Virus record (IMG/VR): IMGVR_UViG_2690316346_000006
Span: 1-13,493 of that record
Origin: a virus
Taxonomy: Duplodnaviria > Heunggongvirae > Uroviricota > Caudoviricetes
DNA: 13,493 nucleotides
Direction: 5' to 3' (one strand)
Within the stretch, counting starts at the first letter, position 1. Each line of letters begins with the position of its first letter. The notes beneath the pieces were generated by a model that searched no databases, was not told the origin of the DNA, and saw only the letters and a list, made by a program, of their open reading frames with translations. Position numbers and translations under genes: made by a program. Shown here one piece after another: positions 1,497 to 9,539 of the stretch.

Positions 1497-1997
1497 TTAG
1501 GCGCGACGGCCTTTTTGTGCAGCTAACCACCGCGCAACCGTACGATCCATTGATTCTTTTTTATCTTTCATCTCCTGAAGCATGTGTTCTTGATCTTCTT
1601 TCGGAAAAGCTCTGAACGTATGGATTAAATCTCGTTCCATCGGCTCTACGGCAAACGGTAGTTCATCCTCTGTTTGTTCTGTGTCTGCTGGTAATGCGAC
1701 TATGTTATCTTGCTGTGGTTCTCGACAATACATCCTTGCAATTTGCAGCAAATCTACCATGTCTGGCCTGATTGACTCAGGGGGAACTTTCAGTAAGCCA
1801 GCAAACTTTAGAACAGCCTCAAGGTTTAGTGGGGTTTGACCATTTAGGTAGTGACTTACCGCCCCTTGTGTTGAAAACCCCATAATTTCCGCCGCACGTT
1901 CCTGAGTCAATCCCAACTGAGATTTCTTTGCCATCCAGATTTCTTTCAGTCTTCTGGCGGCGTTGAGGTCGGTGTCTGACAATGATTTTCTTTTCAT
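1497..1997 (-). CDS. cI-like HTH (XRE-family) repressor, probably PaaR2/RacR-like; ORF track extends to a GTG at 2027
   Basis: HTH motif region QLGLTQERAAEIMGFSTQGAVSHYLNG. Sits divergent to a Cro-like gene with a palindromic operator between them. The ATG at 1995-1997 (MKRKSL...) is favoured over the GTG at 2027, which has no Shine-Dalgarno. Confidence 0.7.
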   Translation of the reverse strand: MKRKSLSDTDLNAARRLKEIWMAKKSQLGLTQERAAEIMGFSTQGAVSHYLNGQTPLNLEAVLKFAGLLKVPPESIRPDMVDLLQIARMYCREPQQDNIVALPADTEQTEDELPFAVEPMERDLIHTFRAFPKEDQEHMLQEMKDKKESMDRTVARWLAAQKGRRA

Positions 1998-2027
1998 ACA
2001 TCCAATTCTAATAAGATTGCTAATCAC

Positions 2028-2794: not shown

Positions 2795-2865
2795 CTGACA
2801 ATAGCCATATCGAATCGCTCCCGGCAACTCGTGAGTAAAAAGATTCGGTATCAGAAGAGGTGAGT

Positions 2866-3930
2866 ATGGCTAACGCCTGGCTCAGATTATGGCATGACAT
2901 GCCAAATGACCCTAAGTGGCGAACAATTGCCAGGGTGTCAGGGCAGCCAATTGCAACAGTGATGGCAGTGTATATCCACCTCCTGGTGAGCGCGTCACGA
3001 AATGTCACGCGAGGTCACATTGATGTCACGACAGAAGATTTGGCAAGTGCGCTCGACGTGACAGAAGAGGTAATTGATTCAATTTTGCAGACGATGCAGG
3101 GGCGGGTACTTGATGGTGATTTAATCACTGGATGGGAAAAACGCCAGGTGCTTAAAGAGGACAACGGCAATATTTCGCAAACCGCAAAATCTCCTGCAGA
3201 GCGCAAGAGGGCGCAGCGAGAGAGGGAAAGAAAGCGGGAACAAAATGGCGATTGTCACGGCGCGTCACGAAATGTCACGCACATGTCACGACGAGTCACG
3301 ACAGATACAGATAAAGATACAGATAAAGAAGATCAAAACACTATGGTCCATGGCGTAAAAAACGCCACGAACCAGGCAGGGGATGTTCAGACCGTCAATC
3401 CTGGTCAGCCAGCAGGCTCGACACCGGAAGCCGATTCAGCGTATGCGCTGAAAGCCGATTCGGGCGCTGTGCAGCAGGTGATGACCGCAAGGCCGGAGCA
3501 ATCACTCCAACTGCAGCAGCCTGAAGCCGATTCCGCCATTCAGCGGGAAGCCGATCGGGTAGCCCCGGAAAACACCGGGCAGCCTGTGGGACGAGTGGAT
3601 TATCCGGATGTGTTCGAACAGGTCTGGCGGGAATACCCGTTGCGTGCCGGGGCAAACCCGAAGAAATCCGCATTCAGTGCCTGGAAGGCCAGATTGCGCG
3701 AGGGGGTGCCACCAGAGACCATGCTGGATGGTGTGAGGCGTTACGCGAGATACCTGGCGGCGACCGGGAAAGCGGGAACGGAATTTGTTCAGCGAGCGAC
3801 GACGTTTTTTGGGCCGGACCGGAATTTTGAAAACCCCTGGTTGCTCCCGGTAAGCGGCACGAACAACCAGCGTTGTGTGAATCATATTTCTGAACCGGAT
3901 ACCGAAATTCCGCCGGGATTCAGGGGGTGA
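2866..3930 (+). CDS. phage replication initiator 1 (O-like / YdaU-like), with origin iterons embedded in the coding sequence
   Basis: ATG at 2866 preceded by GAGGTG (track start GTG 2860). Lies immediately upstream of a DnaC-like gene. Contains two clusters of GTCACG direct repeats. C-terminus ends IPPGFRG, as in the second initiator. Confidence 0.7.
   Translation: MANAWLRLWHDMPNDPKWRTIARVSGQPIATVMAVYIHLLVSASRNVTRGHIDVTTEDLASALDVTEEVIDSILQTMQGRVLDGDLITGWEKRQVLKEDNGNISQTAKSPAERKRAQRERERKREQNGDCHGASRNVTHMSRRVTTDTDKDTDKEDQNTMVHGVKNATNQAGDVQTVNPGQPAGSTPEADSAYALKADSGAVQQVMTARPEQSLQLQQPEADSAIQREADRVAPENTGQPVGRVDYPDVFEQVWREYPLRAGANPKKSAFSAWKARLREGVPPETMLDGVRRYARYLAATGKAGTEFVQRATTFFGPDRNFENPWLLPVSGTNNQRCVNHISEPDTEIPPGFRG
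2993..3030 (+). repeat. iteron cluster 1 of putative origin 1: four GTCACG/GTCAC repeats at 10-11 bp spacing
   Basis: Repeats begin at 2993, 3003, 3014 and 3025, read directly from the sequence. Confidence 0.6.
3254..3300 (+). repeat. iteron cluster 2 of putative origin 1: five GTCACG repeats at 10-11 bp spacing, followed by an ACAGATA-rich AT-rich stretch
   Basis: Repeats begin at 3254, 3264, 3274, 3285 and 3295. The roughly 45-bp unit is near-identical to cluster 1. Confidence 0.6.
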
Positions 3931-3936
3931 TGTGGC

Positions 3937-4683
3937 ATGAAAAACATTGCGGCAGCCGGGGTTCTTGAACGTATTCACAGACTTGCACCACAGGGGGCGG
4001 TTCCACCGTACCGGACGGTGGAGGAGTGGCGGGAATGGCAACTTGCTGAAGGACGAAAACGCAGCGAGGAGATTAACCGCCAGAATCGCCAGTTGCGGGT
4101 GGAAAAAATCCTGAATCGTTCGGGCATCCAGCCTCTGCACAGCAAATGCTCGTTTGCGAATTATCAGGTGCAGAACGACGGGCAAAAATACGCGCTGAGC
4201 CAGGCCAAATCCATAGCTGACGAACTGATGACCGGGTGCACGAATTTTGTGTTCAGCGGTAAAACCGGCACCGGGAAAAATCACCTTGCAGCGGCGATGG
4301 GTAACCGGCTGATGGCGAAGGGGCGCAGCGTGATTATCGTCACCGAGTCTGATGTCATGAGCGTGTTGCATGACAGCTACGACAACGGCAAATCCGGTGA
4401 AAAATTTTTACAGGAGCTTTGCGGGGTTGATTTGCTGGTCCTGGATGAAATAGGCATTCAGCGGGAGACGAAAAACGAGCAGGTGGTATTGCACCAGATA
4501 ATTGATCGCCGGACAGCATCACTGTGCAGTGTCGGGATGTTAACAAACCTGAATCATGCCGCAATGAGCACGCTTCTTGGTGAGAGGATTATGGACCGCA
4601 TGACCATGAACGGTTGTCGGTGGGTGACGTTTAACTGGGATAGCTGGCGTTCAAATGTCAGCTTTCCGGGAGTTGTGAAGTAA
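3937..4683 (+). CDS. DnaC-like helicase loader (YdaV-like), copy 1
   Basis: 248 aa with Walker A-like SGKTGTGKNHLAAA and Walker B-like DLLVLDEIG, as in DnaC. Follows the initiator with 6-bp spacing. Confidence 0.85.
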   Translation: MKNIAAAGVLERIHRLAPQGAVPPYRTVEEWREWQLAEGRKRSEEINRQNRQLRVEKILNRSGIQPLHSKCSFANYQVQNDGQKYALSQAKSIADELMTGCTNFVFSGKTGTGKNHLAAAMGNRLMAKGRSVIIVTESDVMSVLHDSYDNGKSGEKFLQELCGVDLLVLDEIGIQRETKNEQVVLHQIIDRRTASLCSVGMLTNLNHAAMSTLLGERIMDRMTMNGCRWVTFNWDSWRSNVSFPGVVK

Positions 4684-6309: not shown

Positions 6310-6421
6310 TCCTTAATAACCTTTTTATTCTTTGCCACGGGTTCCGTGGCGGGAGATTATGCCGCGTGAACATGAAGATGAGGTGTACTGGCAATAGCGG
6401 ACACTACCATTTGTTCTTTTT

Positions 6422-7240
6422 TTAAGCAGCCATCTGATGATATTTTTCCCTGAAGGCTGCCGGGGAGATATTCCCCAGACGAGAGTGACGACGCTGACGA
6501 TTGTAGAAAATCTCAATGTATTCCCGTATTACTGAGATGGCTTCATCCCGGTTATTAAAACGATAGTGGCTCAGGCTCTCATTTTTCAGCGTTCCCCAGA
6601 AGCTTTCCATCGGAGCGTTGTCGTAACAGTTACCTTTACGCGACATTGATGTTTTCAGACCAGACTGCTCCTGTATGACCCGGTAATCGTATGCGCAGTA
6701 CTGTGAACCTCGATCAGAGTGGTGGATTAGCCCGGCAGGTGGGCGCTGGCTCCTGAGCGCCATAAACAGGGCTTTACCTGTCAGCTCTTTTGTCATGCGC
6801 TCTCCCATGGCGTAGCCGACAATTTCGCACGTATAAACATCTTTGATGCCAGCGAGGTACAACCATCCCTCCTGTGTGGCAACATACGTCAGGTCCGCCA
6901 CCCAGACCTGATTTGGTGCTGTAGGAGCGAACGTCTGGTTCAGCAGATTTGGCGCAACTGGCAGATTGTGGTTCGAGTTCGTAGTCGCTCTGAACTTGCG
7001 TTTCTGCTTACAGCGTAGCCTTAGCTCCTTACGAAGACGTGCCAGTCGGTCACGACCAACGATGATGCCATTCTCTGCCAGCTCCGTCTGGAGCCGCCGG
7101 GTTCCATATGTTTCGCGAGTGCGGATATGTGCCACCTTAATCTCCAGTTTTAGCCGCTCATCACTTTGTTTTCTGTCTGAGGGTTCATGCTGTACCCAGT
7201 TGTAATAACCGCTCCTGGATACACCAAATACCTGACACAT
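6422..7240 (-). CDS. IS3-family transposase OrfB (DDE catalytic part), expressed as an OrfAB fusion by -1 frameshifting
   Basis: 272-aa ORF with DDE-type transposase signatures (HSDRGSQY ... conserved acidic residues) in the -1 frame relative to orfA. Confidence 0.8.
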   Translation of the reverse strand: MCQVFGVSRSGYYNWVQHEPSDRKQSDERLKLEIKVAHIRTRETYGTRRLQTELAENGIIVGRDRLARLRKELRLRCKQKRKFRATTNSNHNLPVAPNLLNQTFAPTAPNQVWVADLTYVATQEGWLYLAGIKDVYTCEIVGYAMGERMTKELTGKALFMALRSQRPPAGLIHHSDRGSQYCAYDYRVIQEQSGLKTSMSRKGNCYDNAPMESFWGTLKNESLSHYRFNNRDEAISVIREYIEIFYNRQRRHSRLGNISPAAFREKYHQMAA

Positions 7241-7275
7241 CGCTTCAATGGGAAATTGTTGTCGCCATTGTTCGA

Positions 7276-7578
7276 TTAACGCGTATTTTTCAGCGACTCC
7301 TGTGCAAAATACGCTGTTGCTTTTTTTAATATATCTCGCTCAAGGCGAGCTTCATTTAACGCCTTACGCAGTTGCAGAATTTCAGATTCCAGTTCAGCCA
7401 CCGTGCGGGAACCAGGAGTACCGAGCCCTTTTCTGGCGGCGGTAACCCATTGTCCTAAAGTGCCTTCAGGAAGAGATAATCGGGAAGCGCCTTCACTGAT
7501 CGAAAGTTGATTTTCAAGAACCGTTCTGACAGCTTCGGCTTTGAACTCTTTAGAGTAACGTTGGGTTTTTCTGCTCAT
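7276..7578 (-). CDS. IS3-family transposase OrfA (HTH part)
   Basis: 100 aa, MSRKTQRYSKEFKAEAVRTV..., which I recognise as IS600/IS3-group OrfA. Confidence 0.8.
   Translation of the reverse strand: MSRKTQRYSKEFKAEAVRTVLENQLSISEGASRLSLPEGTLGQWVTAARKGLGTPGSRTVAELESEILQLRKALNEARLERDILKKATAYFAQESLKNTR
7320..7327 (-). promoter_or_regulatory. programmed -1 ribosomal frameshift site (A AAA AAG) within the orfA/orfB overlap of the IS3-family element
   Basis: Minus-strand sequence TTAAAAAAAGC lies where orfA and orfB overlap, as is typical of IS3-family elements. Confidence 0.6.
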
Positions 7579-7698
7579 TATTAGCTCCTTCTGATGCCAT
7601 TCTATTTCAGGAAGGAGTGTCCGTTAAACTCAGGCTACCTCAGGTTATTCGCTTCTGGGCATGGGCGGATCAACAAATGATAGACGGTAATGCAGATT

Positions 7699-7950
7699 GT
7701 AACGCTCGCGGCGTTACAAAAAGTGCAATAGATCGCATCACTTTTATGTCTGGTTTTGCTGATGCGTTAATTCAGGTTGGATGGCTGGTCGAAAATGACG
7801 GAGGGCTTTCTCTACCTAACTTTGAACGTCATAACGGAAAAAGCTCTAAAAAAAACGGGCGGTTACAAACGAGCGAGTAACAAAAATACGCGAACTGAAA
7901 CGAAAAGGTAACGCTGCCAGCGTTACACAAACGGATCAAAAAGCGTTACC
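7699..7950 (+). repeat. putative origin 2 binding sites: two copies of the palindrome GTAACGC-N5-GCGTTAC (7699-7717, 7908-7926) plus half-sites at 7862-7866 and 7943-7949
   Basis: Read directly from the sequence. Located inside the linker-coding region of initiator 2, analogous to the iterons inside initiator 1 but of a different sequence. Confidence 0.45.
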
Positions 7951-7952
7951 AG

Positions 7953-8000
7953 AGGAAGAGGAAGAGGAAGAGGAAGAGGAAGAGGAAGAGGAAGAGGAAG
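7953..8000 (+). repeat. perfect tandem hexanucleotide repeat (AGGAAG)8; encodes Glu16 in the frame that appears to be coding for the initiator 2 linker
   Basis: 48 bp of uninterrupted AGGAAG units counted directly from the sequence. Confidence 0.9.
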
Positions 8001-8355
8001 ATCTAAATACTGATCTCCCCCTCGCCAAAAACGAGCGTCTAAAAAATTCGAGCCGGAGGCTATTGAGCTGCCCGATTGGTTGCCGGAAACACTCTGGCAT
8101 GAGTGGGTCCGGTTCAGACAGGCATTGCGAAAACCGATTCGAACGGAGCAGGGCGCTAACGGGGCGATACGGGAACTGGAAAAATTCCGTCAGCAGGGTT
8201 TTACACCTGAGCAGGTGATTCGACACAGCATCGCCAATGAATACCAGGGCCTGTTCGCGCCGAAAGGTGTTCGGCCTGAGACGTTGCTCCGACAGGTTAA
8301 CACCGTCTCGTTGCCGGACAGTGCGATCCCGCCAGGCTTCAGGGGGTAACGGACC

Positions 8356-9102
8356 ATGAAAAATATTGCGACAGGCGGCGTTCTGGAACGCATCCGCCGA
8401 CTGACCCCGCCACATGTAACCGCCCCATTCAGAACGGTAGCGGAGTGGCGCGAGTGGCAACTTGCTGAAGGCCAGAAACGTAGCGAGGAGATCAACCGCC
8501 TGAATCGCCAGTTGCGGGTGGAAAAAATTCTGAATCGCTCAGGCATCCAGCCGTTGCACCGTAAATGCTCGTTTGCGAATTACCAGGTGCAGAACGACGG
8601 CCAGCGATACGCGTTAAGCCAGGCGAAATCCATCGCCGATGAACTGATGACCGGGTGTACAAATTTTGCGTTCAGCGGAAAACCTGGTACCGGGAAGAAT
8701 CACTTAGCGGCAGCTATCGGGAATCGCCTGCTGAAAGACGGTCAGACAGTGATTGTGGTTACCGTGGCTGATGTTATGAGCGCCCTGCACGCCAGCTATG
8801 ACGACGGGCAGTCAGGCGAAAAATTTTTGCGGGAGCTGTGCGAAGTGGATCTGCTGGTTCTTGATGAAATTGGCATTCAGCGCGAGACGAAAAACGAGCA
8901 GGTGGTGCTGCACCAGATTGTTGATCGCCGGACAGCGTCGATGCGCAGCGTGGGGATGCTGACAAACCTGAACTATGAGGTGATGAAAACATTGCTCGGC
9001 GAGCGGGTGATGGATCGCATGGTCATGAACGGCGGGCGCTGGGTGAATTTTAACTGGGAGAGCTGGCGTCCGAATGTTAGCCATTCGAGGGTTGTTAAGT
9101 AG
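8356..9102 (+). CDS. DnaC-like helicase loader, copy 2 (roughly 85% amino-acid identity to copy 1 by eye)
   Basis: 248 aa with SGKPGTGKNHLAAA and DLLVLDEIG motifs; same length and architecture as 3937-4683. Confidence 0.85.
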   Translation: MKNIATGGVLERIRRLTPPHVTAPFRTVAEWREWQLAEGQKRSEEINRLNRQLRVEKILNRSGIQPLHRKCSFANYQVQNDGQRYALSQAKSIADELMTGCTNFAFSGKPGTGKNHLAAAIGNRLLKDGQTVIVVTVADVMSALHASYDDGQSGEKFLRELCEVDLLVLDEIGIQRETKNEQVVLHQIVDRRTASMRSVGMLTNLNYEVMKTLLGERVMDRMVMNGGRWVNFNWESWRPNVSHSRVVK

Positions 9103-9116
9103 TTTCAGGAGGATTT

Positions 9117-9539
9117 ATGGCGAAACCTTTTACTCCCGAACAGCGGGAAGAACTGAAGACGCGAATTGTGGAACTCGTGCATCAGGACGGTCGGGTCACG
9201 ATTCGGCAGTTGTCAGATGAAACAGGTATCAGTCGTGCGTCTGTCGGTCGCTTATGCATAGAACTGGTCGCAAGTGGTGATGTATATAATTCTGGCTACG
9301 GCTTATTCCCGTCTGAACAGGCTCGCAAGGACTGGCAAAGCGCCCGCAAAAAACTCTCGAGAGTAAAGGTGAGGAAACCGGTTGTTGTTGATCCGGACCT
9401 TATCTGGTCATTACCTGACGGAGAAATACGCCGCTACGACAGGCGCCTGAATATAATCTGTCGCGAGTGCCGGAAGAGCGAAGCTATGCAGCGTGTACTG
9501 GCTTTCTATCAGGGTAATTTTCAGGAGGCGATACTGTGA
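9117..9539 (+). CDS. hypothetical protein, paralog of 5446-5868 with a diverged N-terminus
   Basis: 140 aa; C-terminal region (ELVASGDVYNSGYGLFPSEQARKDWQ ... IICRECRKSE ...) nearly identical to copy 1. Confidence 0.6.
   Translation: MAKPFTPEQREELKTRIVELVHQDGRVTIRQLSDETGISRASVGRLCIELVASGDVYNSGYGLFPSEQARKDWQSARKKLSRVKVRKPVVVDPDLIWSLPDGEIRRYDRRLNIICRECRKSEAMQRVLAFYQGNFQEAIL

What the first reader, a model, noticed from the sequence alone, without database searches (positions are those of the whole stretch)
7699..7950. Distinct palindromic sites (GTAACGC-N5-GCGTTAC) as a candidate second origin with different specificity
Two full 19-bp palindromes and two half-sites of the same motif sit in the linker-coding part of initiator 2, directly upstream of the (AGGAAG)8 tract. 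The motif is unrelated to the GTCACG iterons of module 1, and the N-terminal domains of the two initiators are dissimilar. The two modules therefore look like replication systems with distinct origin recognition.
Basis: inference. Interest (0 to 1): 0.55.

Follow-up and report, generated by a model that had tools for sequence, protein, structure and literature searches.

The report
Relic phage replication origin inside initiator gene
The palindromes are real, strongly conserved DNA sites that most likely form the replication origin embedded in a Rac-like prophage initiator gene, an ordinary lambda-style arrangement, and this copy is a dead remnant cut off by an insertion sequence.

Summary
GTAACGC-N5-GCGTTAC occurs perfectly at 7699-7717 and 7908-7926 (0.04 expected). 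There is an exact half-site at 7943-7949 and a one-mismatch half-site at 7687-7693.

The sites lie in a 5'-truncated, twice-frameshifted copy of a Rac-like initiator gene (phrog_2509 "replication initiation protein"). IS600 (6379-7642) removed codons 1-35 and a third, non-coding palindrome found upstream of intact relatives.

The arms are under DNA-level selection:
- They are invariant at the same gene positions in relatives down to about 40% protein identity, while the 5-bp spacer varies freely (70 perfect sites, 48 distinct spacers).
- Synonymous third positions are frozen (p = 6e-5).
- All 119 viral contigs retrieved by the paired motif carry the pair inside this gene.
- Deviations are never compensated, which argues against hairpins.
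- A sister subfamily carries a different palindrome pair (98/98 contigs). K-12 Rac YdaU has a different N-domain and different repeats.

The best reading is a lambda-style origin: initiator-binding sites inside the initiator gene, with a specificity distinct from module 1's GTCACG iterons. Binding and initiation are inferred, not shown. In this window the origin is orphaned.

It is a new member of a known kind, of moderate interest.

The parts
7687..7693 (+). Degenerate half-site GTAATGC (one mismatch to GTAACGC), 12 bp upstream of palindrome 1.
   Evidence: Most relatives have a perfect GTAACGC at this position (+148 from the initiator ATG).
7699..7717 (.). Palindrome 1, GTAACGCTCGCGGCGTTAC. 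It encodes C-N-A-R-G-V-T in a loop of the initiator N-domain.
   Evidence: It is conserved at +148/+160 in all type-A relatives. The loop has low pLDDT (residues 52-57).
7860..7881 (.). Weak or degenerate half-sites CGGTTAC and GAGTAAC in the A-rich stretch before palindrome 2.
   Evidence: Several relatives have an exact half-site here at +334. The third position of the Val108 GTT codon is invariant in 16 enterobacterial genes.
7908..7926 (.). Palindrome 2, GTAACGCTGCCAGCGTTAC. It encodes G-N-A-A-S-V-T in the disordered inter-domain linker.
   Evidence: It is conserved at +352 to +412 in relatives. The linker (residues 96-160) has pLDDT below 50.
7943..7949 (+). Exact half-site GCGTTAC, 23 bp after the right arm of palindrome 2. 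It is read in a different frame (K-A-L-P).
   Evidence: Third-position entropy is 0 for the Ala135, Leu136 and Pro137 codons.
7952..7999 (+). (GAGGAA)8 purine tract, which is poly-Glu in the intact frame. It is expanded by 30 bp relative to the three units in Rac-like phages.
   Evidence: The region is A-rich and low in GC in the intact relative.
8000..8015 (.). GATC-flanked AT-rich 16-mer GATCTAAATACTGATC. It is a candidate unwinding element at the start of the segment shared with K-12 Rac ydaU.
   Evidence: The role is inferred only.
7643..8349 (+). Remnant of the Rac-like initiator gene (ydaU-type, phrog_2509). Codons 36-105 are in one frame. A +2 shift occurs at the A8 run 7848-7855 and a -10 bp deletion near 8016. 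The C-terminal domain runs to the stop at 8347-8349.
6379..7642 (-). IS600 (1264 bp; orfA 7276-7578, orfB 6422-7240). It replaces the initiator's first 35 codons, its upstream palindrome and everything upstream.
   Evidence: The flanking triplets AGA and GGT differ, so there is no target duplication.
8356..9102 (+). Intact DnaC-like helicase loader (ydaV type), the partner gene of initiator 2.
   Evidence: NF009043, 510 bits; phrog_50.
2860..3930 (+). Comparator: the module-1 initiator (phrog_3729). It has GTCACG arrays at 2994-3032 and 3254-3302, at the homologous loop and linker positions.

Best explanation
The palindromes are the surviving part of a phage replication origin that is written into the coding sequence of its own initiator gene, as in lambda.

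In intact relatives the gene carries convergent arrays of the 7-bp half-site GTAACGC in 11-12-bp phase. The arrays form two internal clusters, near +150 and near +370 from the ATG. In Enterobacterales there is often a third cluster just upstream of the ribosome-binding site.

Proposed mechanism (inferred). The winged-helix N-domain of the initiator binds these half-sites, as dimers on the palindromes. The bound clusters assemble into a nucleoprotein complex. The adjacent A-rich/purine tract and a GATC-flanked AT-rich stretch open. The C-terminal domain and its DnaT-like tail then recruit the DnaC-like loader YdaV with host DnaB.

The specificity differs from module 1, which uses GTCACG direct repeats in 10-bp phase.

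In this window the origin is an orphan. IS600 deleted the upstream cluster and codons 1-35, and the gene has two frameshifts. It could fire only if a co-resident prophage supplied the same initiator type in trans.

What is shown: the presence of the sites, their position, DNA-level selection on them, and the change of motif with N-domain type. What is inferred: binding by the initiator, unwinding, and origin function.
For: Real and non-random: 2 sites found against 0.04 expected.

Gene identity:
- The region is 92% identical to ydaU-ydaV of Rac-like phages, where the gene is annotated by depositors as 'DNA replication protein O'.
- It matches phrog_2509 'replication initiation protein' at E 9e-89. 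Its C-terminal half matches the O-like family phrog_678. A DnaC-like loader follows.

DNA-level constraint:
- Perfect arms sit at the same three positions in Shigella, Mixta, Erwinia, Yersinia, Serratia, Pantoea, Xanthomonas, Pseudomonas and Ralstonia relatives, and in a Pirellulaceae MAG, at 40-97% protein identity. The spacers vary freely.
- The residue before Asn is Cys, Gly or Ser, all NGT codons.
- One site is non-coding, and one half-site is read in another frame.
- Third-position entropy is 0.15 inside the motif against 1.31 elsewhere, Mann-Whitney p = 6e-5.

Reverse test: all 119 IMG/VR contigs with the paired motif have it inside this gene, in the same orientation and position.

The motif changes with the N-domain:
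- The sister subfamily uses TGTCCGC-N7-GCGGACA at +64 and about +360 in 98 of 98 contigs, with no type-A sites.
- K-12 Rac YdaU has the same C-domain (83% identity) but a DUF1376 N-domain. It has TGTTCAAACA repeats and no GTAACGC palindrome.
- Module 1 has GTCACG arrays at the homologous positions.

Precedent: the lambda origin lies in the middle of gene O. It consists of 19-bp imperfect inverted-repeat iterons plus an AT-rich tract (PMC7466680).
Against: - No binding, footprint or replication data exist for this family in anything I could find.
- The sites are physically inside the gene, so their co-occurrence with the N-domain is partly plain linkage.
- The layout differs from lambda. There are two or three clusters about 200 bp apart instead of one block of four iterons.
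- No strongly AT-rich unwinding element is evident. The lowest 40-bp GC is 0.33-0.35.
- The structural matches are modest, and Foldseek found nothing significant.
- Some distant relatives (epsilon15, Raharianne) show no obvious palindromes.
- In this window the cognate initiator is a pseudogene.
Confidence: 0.65

Rival explanations
1. The initiator binds the sites, but for autoregulation or as a transcriptional roadblock rather than for initiation. This would resemble the inverted-repeat operators of iteron-plasmid Rep proteins. The true origin would lie elsewhere.
For: The sites are palindromes, which fits dimer binding. The upstream copy abuts the ribosome-binding site of the initiator gene, at -33 to -15 from the ATG. 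The clusters are about 200 bp apart, unlike a compact iteron block.
Against: No sigma-70-like promoter lies near the upstream site. That site is missing in the Pseudomonas, Xanthomonas and Ralstonia relatives, where the gene start abuts or overlaps the preceding gene, yet the internal clusters persist. Arrays of extra same-direction half-sites in helical phase look like oligomerisation sites. No other repeat cluster is evident in the module.
Confidence: 0.13
2. The sites are bound by a protein other than the initiator, either another phage regulator or a host factor. They travel with the gene only because they are embedded in it.
For: Linkage alone would produce the 119/119 and 98/98 co-occurrence. 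Several helix-turn-helix proteins are encoded nearby, for example DUF977 at 9117-9539.
Against: The neighbouring genes differ completely among the Enterobacterales, Pseudomonas, Xanthomonas and Ralstonia phages that keep the motif. The partners vary among a P-like loader, a DnaC-like loader and a DnaB helicase. The motif switches when the N-domain switches but the C-domain, the loader and the Rac context stay the same. A host factor shared from Enterobacterales to a Pirellulaceae MAG is unlikely.
Confidence: 0.08
3. The sites act as hairpins, either in the mRNA (stability or translation), as cruciforms, or as an antisense terminator.
For: Each site can form a 7-bp stem with a 5-nt loop. On the minus strand, palindrome 2 is followed by a T-rich run and was flagged as terminator-like.
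Against: In 18 imperfect sites, 21 deviating pair positions break the pair, 2 are G-U type and none is compensated. Isolated half-sites with no partner are conserved in 11-12-bp phase. The arm sequence itself is invariant, not merely its complementarity. Rfam gave no match.
Confidence: 0.04
4. The pattern is a chance occurrence or a purely protein-level constraint (a repeated NAxSVT peptide).
For: Both internal palindromes encode x-N-A-x-x-V-T.
Against: Only 0.04 sites are expected by chance. A non-coding copy exists and a half-site is read in another frame. Synonymous positions are frozen. The residue before Asn varies among Cys, Gly and Ser while the NGT codon is kept. The second copy lies in a disordered linker.
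Confidence: 0.02

Closest known systems
Bacteriophage lambda ori-lambda with the O protein (and Stx-phage origins)
   Same: The initiator-binding repeats have dyad symmetry and a 19-bp unit. They lie inside the initiator gene, in DNA that codes for the linker between the DNA-binding N-domain and the loader-binding C-domain. An A/T-biased stretch follows (PMC7466680). The C-terminal half matches the PHROG family 'replication initiation O-like'.
   Different: There was no Pfam hit at E 0.01, so Phage_rep_O was not matched. The sites are 7-bp half-sites in convergent arrays, split into 2-3 clusters about 200 bp apart. One cluster is inside N-domain-coding DNA and one is upstream of the gene. The partner is a DnaC-like AAA+ loader, not lambda P. 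No clear AT-rich block is present.
oriJ / ydaU-ydaV of the E. coli K-12 Rac prophage
   Same: The gene order is the same. The C-terminal domain is 83% identical, the loader is of the ydaV type, and the shared downstream sequence GATC-TAAA-GATC-CCCCC is present. Published 'oriJ' primers map into ydaV next to ydaU (PMC3945230 supplement).
   Different: K-12 YdaU has a DUF1376 N-domain unrelated in sequence to this one. Its linker DNA carries TGTTCAAACA-type repeats and no GTAACGC palindrome. This is therefore a different origin specificity in the same module frame.
Module 1 of this window (phrog_3729 initiator with GTCACG iterons)
   Same: The N-domain is distantly homologous (hhalign 82%). Both proteins end in PDxxIPPGFRG and are followed by a DnaC-like loader. 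The repeat clusters sit at the same two gene positions, the loop after helix 2 and the linker.
   Different: Module 1 uses direct repeats of GTCACG in 10-bp phase rather than inverted GTAACGC half-sites in 12-bp phase. Neither motif clusters in the other module.
Iteron-plasmid Rep proteins (pPS10, pSC101 and F type) and SPP1 G38P with oriL
   Different: No significant sequence match was found. TIGR01714 (phage_rep_org_N) is hit only by module 1, at E 0.016 and below its cut-off. The resemblance is a lead, not evidence of membership.

Membership tests
Lambdoid origin embedded in the initiator gene (ori-lambda type) | Repeated initiator-binding sites lie inside the initiator gene, in the DNA coding for the inter-domain linker. 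| tested here: met
   Palindrome 2 and the half-site lie in DNA coding for the disordered linker, residues 96-160. Palindrome 1 lies in an N-domain loop.
Lambdoid origin embedded in the initiator gene (ori-lambda type) | One compact block of four or more tandem 19-bp iterons. | tested here: not met
   There are two or three clusters about 200 bp apart. Each has 2-6 half-sites of 7 bp in 11-12-bp phase.
Lambdoid origin embedded in the initiator gene (ori-lambda type) | An AT-rich unwinding region lies next to the repeats. | tested here: inconclusive
   The region around and after cluster 2 is A-rich and purine-biased, with GC 0.33-0.45 and AT skew up to 0.77. A 16-bp GATC-flanked AT-rich stretch is present. 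There is no long AT block.
Lambdoid origin embedded in the initiator gene (ori-lambda type) | The initiator is homologous to lambda O. | tested here: inconclusive
   There was no Pfam family at E 0.01. The C-terminal half hits phrog_678 'replication initiation O-like' at E 2e-25.
Lambdoid origin embedded in the initiator gene (ori-lambda type) | The initiator binds the repeats, and replication starts there. | not testable with these tools
   This needs EMSA or footprinting, minireplicon assays or origin mapping.
PHROG 2509 replication initiation proteins (Rac-like 262-aa YdaU type) | A full-length profile match. | tested here: met
   The intact relative matches at E 9e-89 over residues 1-262. 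The window copy is 92% identical in DNA but truncated and frameshifted.
K-12 Rac oriJ specificity group (DUF1376 YdaU) | The same N-domain and the same repeats as K-12 ydaU. | tested here: not met
   Only the C-terminal 119 residues align. K-12 has no GTAACGC palindrome and carries different repeats.
SPP1 G38P-type replisome organiser (TIGR01714 / phage_rep_org_N) | The N-domain matches the family profile above its cut-off. | tested here: not met
   Initiator 2 has no hit. Module 1 scores E 0.016 and 15.4 bits against a cut-off of 49.8.
Structured RNA element (any Rfam family) | A covariance-model match, or compensatory base-pair changes. | tested here: not met
   Rfam gave no match at E of 1 or below. 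None of 23 deviating pair positions is compensated.

The most novel reading that the evidence does not exclude
This initiator family, found from Enterobacterales to Xanthomonas, Pseudomonas and Ralstonia and in Planctomycetota MAGs, may use a split origin. Its convergent half-site arrays would be written into the codons of the initiator's own DNA-binding-domain loop and linker. The conserved NAxSVT peptide would then be dictated by the DNA site, not by the protein. Origin and initiator specificity could not be separated by recombination, and initiation would need looping between clusters about 200 bp apart. A corollary is that orphan origins like the one in this window could still be fired in trans by a co-resident prophage of the same type.
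Probability: 0.4. Interest if true: 0.55.

Novelty: new member of a known kind. Interest (0 to 1): 0.38.

Why it matters
If confirmed, this gives a simple sequence signature for locating the origin of a widespread but uncharacterised family of temperate-phage initiators. The signature is paired GTAACGC-N5-GCGTTAC sites inside the gene.

It would also be a clean natural example of dual coding. The protein-binding DNA sites constrain the codons of loops in the very protein that is thought to bind them.

It would explain how replication modules keep origin and initiator specificity together through mosaic recombination.

For this window the practical message is modest. Module 2 is a decayed remnant produced by an IS600-associated rearrangement, not a second working replicon.

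Tried and rejected
- Pfam gave no family for either initiator. NCBIfam gave only a short DnaT-like C-terminal tail match.
- Literature. A whole-word search for 'oriJ' mostly returned papers citing an author named Orij. The key oriJ plasmid paper (Potrykus 2000, PMID 10964622) is not held. No paper I found describes this motif.
- The published 'oriJ' primers map inside ydaV. They do not pinpoint the origin.
- The plasmid search found only two circular phage genomes filed as plasmids, so it gave no independent evidence that the module is a sufficient replicon.
- The promoter scan found no promoter at the upstream palindrome.
- The hairpin/RNA reading was rejected because there is no compensation and no Rfam match.
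- The chance or peptide-only reading was rejected on synonymous-site and non-coding conservation.
- The excess of isolated GCGTTAC 7-mers elsewhere in the window (5 observed; my own estimate is about 1.6 expected by chance) was judged not significant. Related loci show background levels.

Full report
**1. Observation**

The sequence GTAACGC-N5-GCGTTAC occurs perfectly at 7699-7717 and 7908-7926. Even with two mismatches allowed it occurs nowhere else in the 13.5-kb window. Shuffles give 0.04 expected.

An exact GCGTTAC half-site lies at 7943-7949. A one-mismatch half-site, GTAATGC, lies at 7687-7693, exactly 12 bp before palindrome 1. (GAGGAA)8 follows at 7952-7999.

**2. Context**

The window holds two lambdoid early regions.

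Module 1 consists of:
- a repressor (1497-2027, minus strand);
- a cro-like gene and a ydaT-like gene;
- an initiator (2860-3930, phrog_3729);
- a DnaC-like loader (3937-4683);
- a DUF1627 gene.

IS600 follows at 6379-7642. It is 1264 bp long, with a 100-aa orfA and a 272-aa orfB, and is 99.8% identical to copies in Stx2a phages. Its flanking triplets, AGA and GGT, differ. There is therefore no target duplication, and the junction reflects a rearrangement or deletion rather than a simple insertion.

From 7642 the DNA is 92% identical to ydaU-ydaV of 'Escherichia phage Rac' MN652886 and of phages such as vB_EcoS-666R9. There the gene is annotated 'DNA replication protein O' and is followed by a DnaC-like gene.

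Alignment with those intact genes and three-frame translation show that the window copy:
- lacks codons 1-35;
- has a +2 insertion in an A run (A8 at 7848-7855 against A6);
- has a 30-bp expansion of the GAGGAA tract;
- has a 10-bp deletion near 8016.

It is a pseudogene. The ydaV-type loader at 8356-9102 is intact.

Intact relatives also carry a third perfect palindrome, GTAACGCTGCGAGCGTTAC, in non-coding DNA 13-14 bp before the ATG and next to the ribosome-binding site. IS600 removed it here.

**3. The protein**

The intact 262-aa protein has no Pfam match. It matches phrog_2509 'replication initiation protein' at E 9e-89. Its C-terminal half matches 'primosomal protein' and 'replication initiation O-like' PHROGs. 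Its last 19 residues resemble the C-terminus of DnaT.

An AlphaFold2 model built from 20 homologues predicts three parts:
- a helical N-domain with a beta hairpin (residues 11-95);
- a disordered linker (residues 96-160);
- a helical C-domain (residues 165-235).

Palindrome 1 encodes a low-confidence loop (residues 52-57) just before the third helix. Palindrome 2 and the half-site encode part of the disordered linker. Both sit where the protein should tolerate a sequence imposed by the DNA.

**4. Selection acts on the DNA**

I fetched 23 genomic loci encoding relatives. The genera include Shigella, Mixta, Erwinia, Yersinia, Serratia, Pantoea, Pectobacterium, Rahnella and Samsonia, plus Pirellulaceae and Verrucomicrobia MAGs.

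- The arms are perfect at the same positions in proteins only 40-70% identical: about -32 to -44, +148/+160, and +357 to +412. The 5-bp spacer varies freely.
- Phages of Xanthomonas (CP2), Pseudomonas (VW-6S, PAN70) and Ralstonia (QkW1), at 43-49% identity, keep GGTAACGC-N5-GCGTTA(C/G) at both internal positions.
- In the protein alignment the sites read x-N-A-x-x-V-T. The residue before Asn is Cys, Gly or Ser, all NGT codons. The residue before Val is Ser or Gly, both NGC codons.
- The half-site at +402 is read in another frame (K-A-L-P), with zero third-position entropy.
- Across 35 dereplicated genes, third-position entropy at codons with conserved amino acids is 0.15 inside the motif (n = 6) and 1.31 outside (n = 38). 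Mann-Whitney p = 6e-5.
- Across 42 dereplicated genes there are 70 perfect sites with 48 distinct spacers.

**5. Anatomy of the clusters**

Each cluster is a convergent array of 7-mers in 11-12-bp phase. In the coordinates below, > marks GTAACGC and < marks GCGTTAC. Examples are 148> 160> 172<, and 367> 379> 391> 403< 426<.

The window retains (7687>) 7699> 7711< and 7908> 7920< 7943<.

The region around and after cluster 2 is A-rich and purine-biased, with GC 0.33-0.45. It runs into the GAGGAA tract and then a GATC-flanked AT-rich 16-mer (8000-8015). That 16-mer begins the segment shared with K-12 Rac ydaU.

**6. Specificity tests**

In all 119 the pair lies inside a gene for this N-domain (36-99% identity), in the same orientation and position. 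In the 1.2 Mb of viral contig DNA retrieved there is one independent stray palindrome.

*Sister subfamily.* Pseudomonas phage PSA-2T, about 30% identical, has a different palindrome, TGTCCGC-N7-GCGGACA, at +65 and +365. A search with that pair hit 98 contigs. All 98 carry it inside the PSA-2T-type gene, at +64 and +352 to +376. There are no strays and no type-A palindromes in 885 kb.

*K-12 Rac YdaU.* This protein shares only the C-terminal 119 residues (83% identity). It has a DUF1376 N-domain. Its linker DNA carries TGTTCAAACA-type repeats and no GTAACGC palindrome.

*Module 1 of this window.* Its N-domain is a distant homologue (hhalign probability 82%, E 1e-5, 25% identity). It carries GTCACG direct repeats in 10-bp phase at 2994-3032 and 3254-3302, which are the homologous loop and linker positions.

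The repeat type therefore follows the N-domain. It does not follow the C-domain, the loader or the neighbouring genes, which differ widely among the phages that keep the motif.

One caveat applies. The sites are inside the gene, so co-occurrence is partly linkage. The argument rests on the synonymous-site and non-coding conservation together with the motif switches.

**7. Alternatives**

*Hairpin (RNA or cruciform).* In 18 imperfect sites, 21 deviating pair positions break the pair, 2 are G-U type and none is compensated. Unpaired half-sites are conserved. Rfam finds nothing. The terminator-like call on the minus strand at palindrome 2 is best explained by the neighbouring A-rich tract.

*Autoregulatory operator.* This reading cannot be excluded, and it could coexist with origin function. 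No promoter is predicted at the upstream site, and that site is absent in the more distant relatives.

*A different binding protein.* This is unlikely given the variable neighbouring genes and the motif switches.

**8. Mechanism proposed**

Inferred: winged-helix N-domains bind the half-sites, as dimers on the palindromes with further protomers on the flanking repeats. The clusters are brought together. The adjacent A-rich region opens. The C-terminal domain and its DnaT-like tail recruit the DnaC-like loader with DnaB.

This is the lambda scheme. There the origin lies in the middle of gene O and consists of 19-bp imperfect inverted-repeat iterons plus an AT-rich tract (PMC7466680). The differences here are a different fold family, a split layout and a different loader.

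The field places Rac's oriJ in the ydaU-ydaV region. The published 'oriJ' primers map to ydaV (PMC3945230 supplement).

**9. Verdict**

The cis element is real and strongly selected. It is most probably the origin of a widespread but uncharacterised initiator family.

In this window it is an orphaned relic. Two of three clusters survive, the initiator gene is dead, and the loader is intact.

It is a new member of a known kind, an origin inside the initiator gene, and of moderate interest. I found no description of this motif in the papers searched. The oriJ plasmid paper most likely to bear on it is not held.

Noticed in passing
window 6379-7642: This IS600 copy has no 3-bp target duplication (flanks AGA and GGT). 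It joins the end of module 1's region directly to codon 36 of the second initiator. That points to an IS-mediated deletion, or to recombination between two prophages, rather than a simple insertion.
   Followed up: partly
window 7952-7999: The GAGGAA hexamer tract has 8 units here against 3 in Rac-like phages, a 30-bp in-frame expansion of the poly-Glu linker. A +2 slip in an A run (7848-7855) and the loss of one copy of a 10-bp direct repeat near 8016 are also slippage-type lesions.
   Followed up: partly
window 3856-3927 and 8290-8346: Both initiators end with the same tail, ...PD(S/T)xIPPGFRG, which weakly matches the extreme C-terminus of the primosomal protein DnaT (NF002770, positions 156-179). 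It may be the shared contact for the DnaC-like loader or for DnaB.
   Followed up: no
window 2994-3032 and 3254-3302: Module 1's GTCACG direct repeats (10-bp phase) form two clusters about 260 bp apart. They sit at the gene positions homologous to the two palindrome clusters of module 2. A two-cluster layout therefore seems general to this initiator superfamily.
   Followed up: partly
L026 4470-4580 (E. coli K-12 Rac ydaU): The K-12 ydaU linker DNA carries 5-6 copies of (GA)TGTTCAAACA, one of them inverted, just before the shared GATC-flanked AT-rich segment. These are candidate oriJ iterons for the DUF1376-type initiator.
   Followed up: partly
proteins P0025 and P0047 (376-378 aa, E. coli and Salmonella): Some family members carry an insertion of about 115 residues right after the poly-Glu tract, between the N- and C-domains. 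It is an extra domain of unknown function inside the initiator linker.
   Followed up: no
L020, L022, L023, L024: Genes of this N-domain family occur in Pirellulaceae and Verrucomicrobia MAGs. L020 keeps perfect GGTAACGC-N5-GCGTTACC at both internal positions at about 40% protein identity. L022 has GTGACGC-N5-GCGTAAC at both. These are either very broad host range or binning contamination.
   Followed up: no
L062 position 1368 and L104 position 1561: These two related viral contigs carry a lone extra perfect palindrome about 4.5 kb from the initiator gene, inside a small ORF of unknown function. It was the only stray in 1.2 Mb.
   Followed up: partly
L151 (IMG/VR contig): This is another copy of the initiator gene. 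Its N-domain match starts at residue 33, and a perfect palindrome lies about 1.3 kb upstream of the inferred gene start. It may be an insertion like the one in the window, but with the upstream part retained. The intervening DNA was not examined.
   Followed up: no
L002 3832-3853: A separate 8-bp-stem hairpin, TACCGAAC-N6-GTTCGGTA, lies between the ydaT/cII-like gene and the upstream palindrome in intact Rac-like phages. Its function is unknown, and the equivalent DNA is lost from the window.
   Followed up: no
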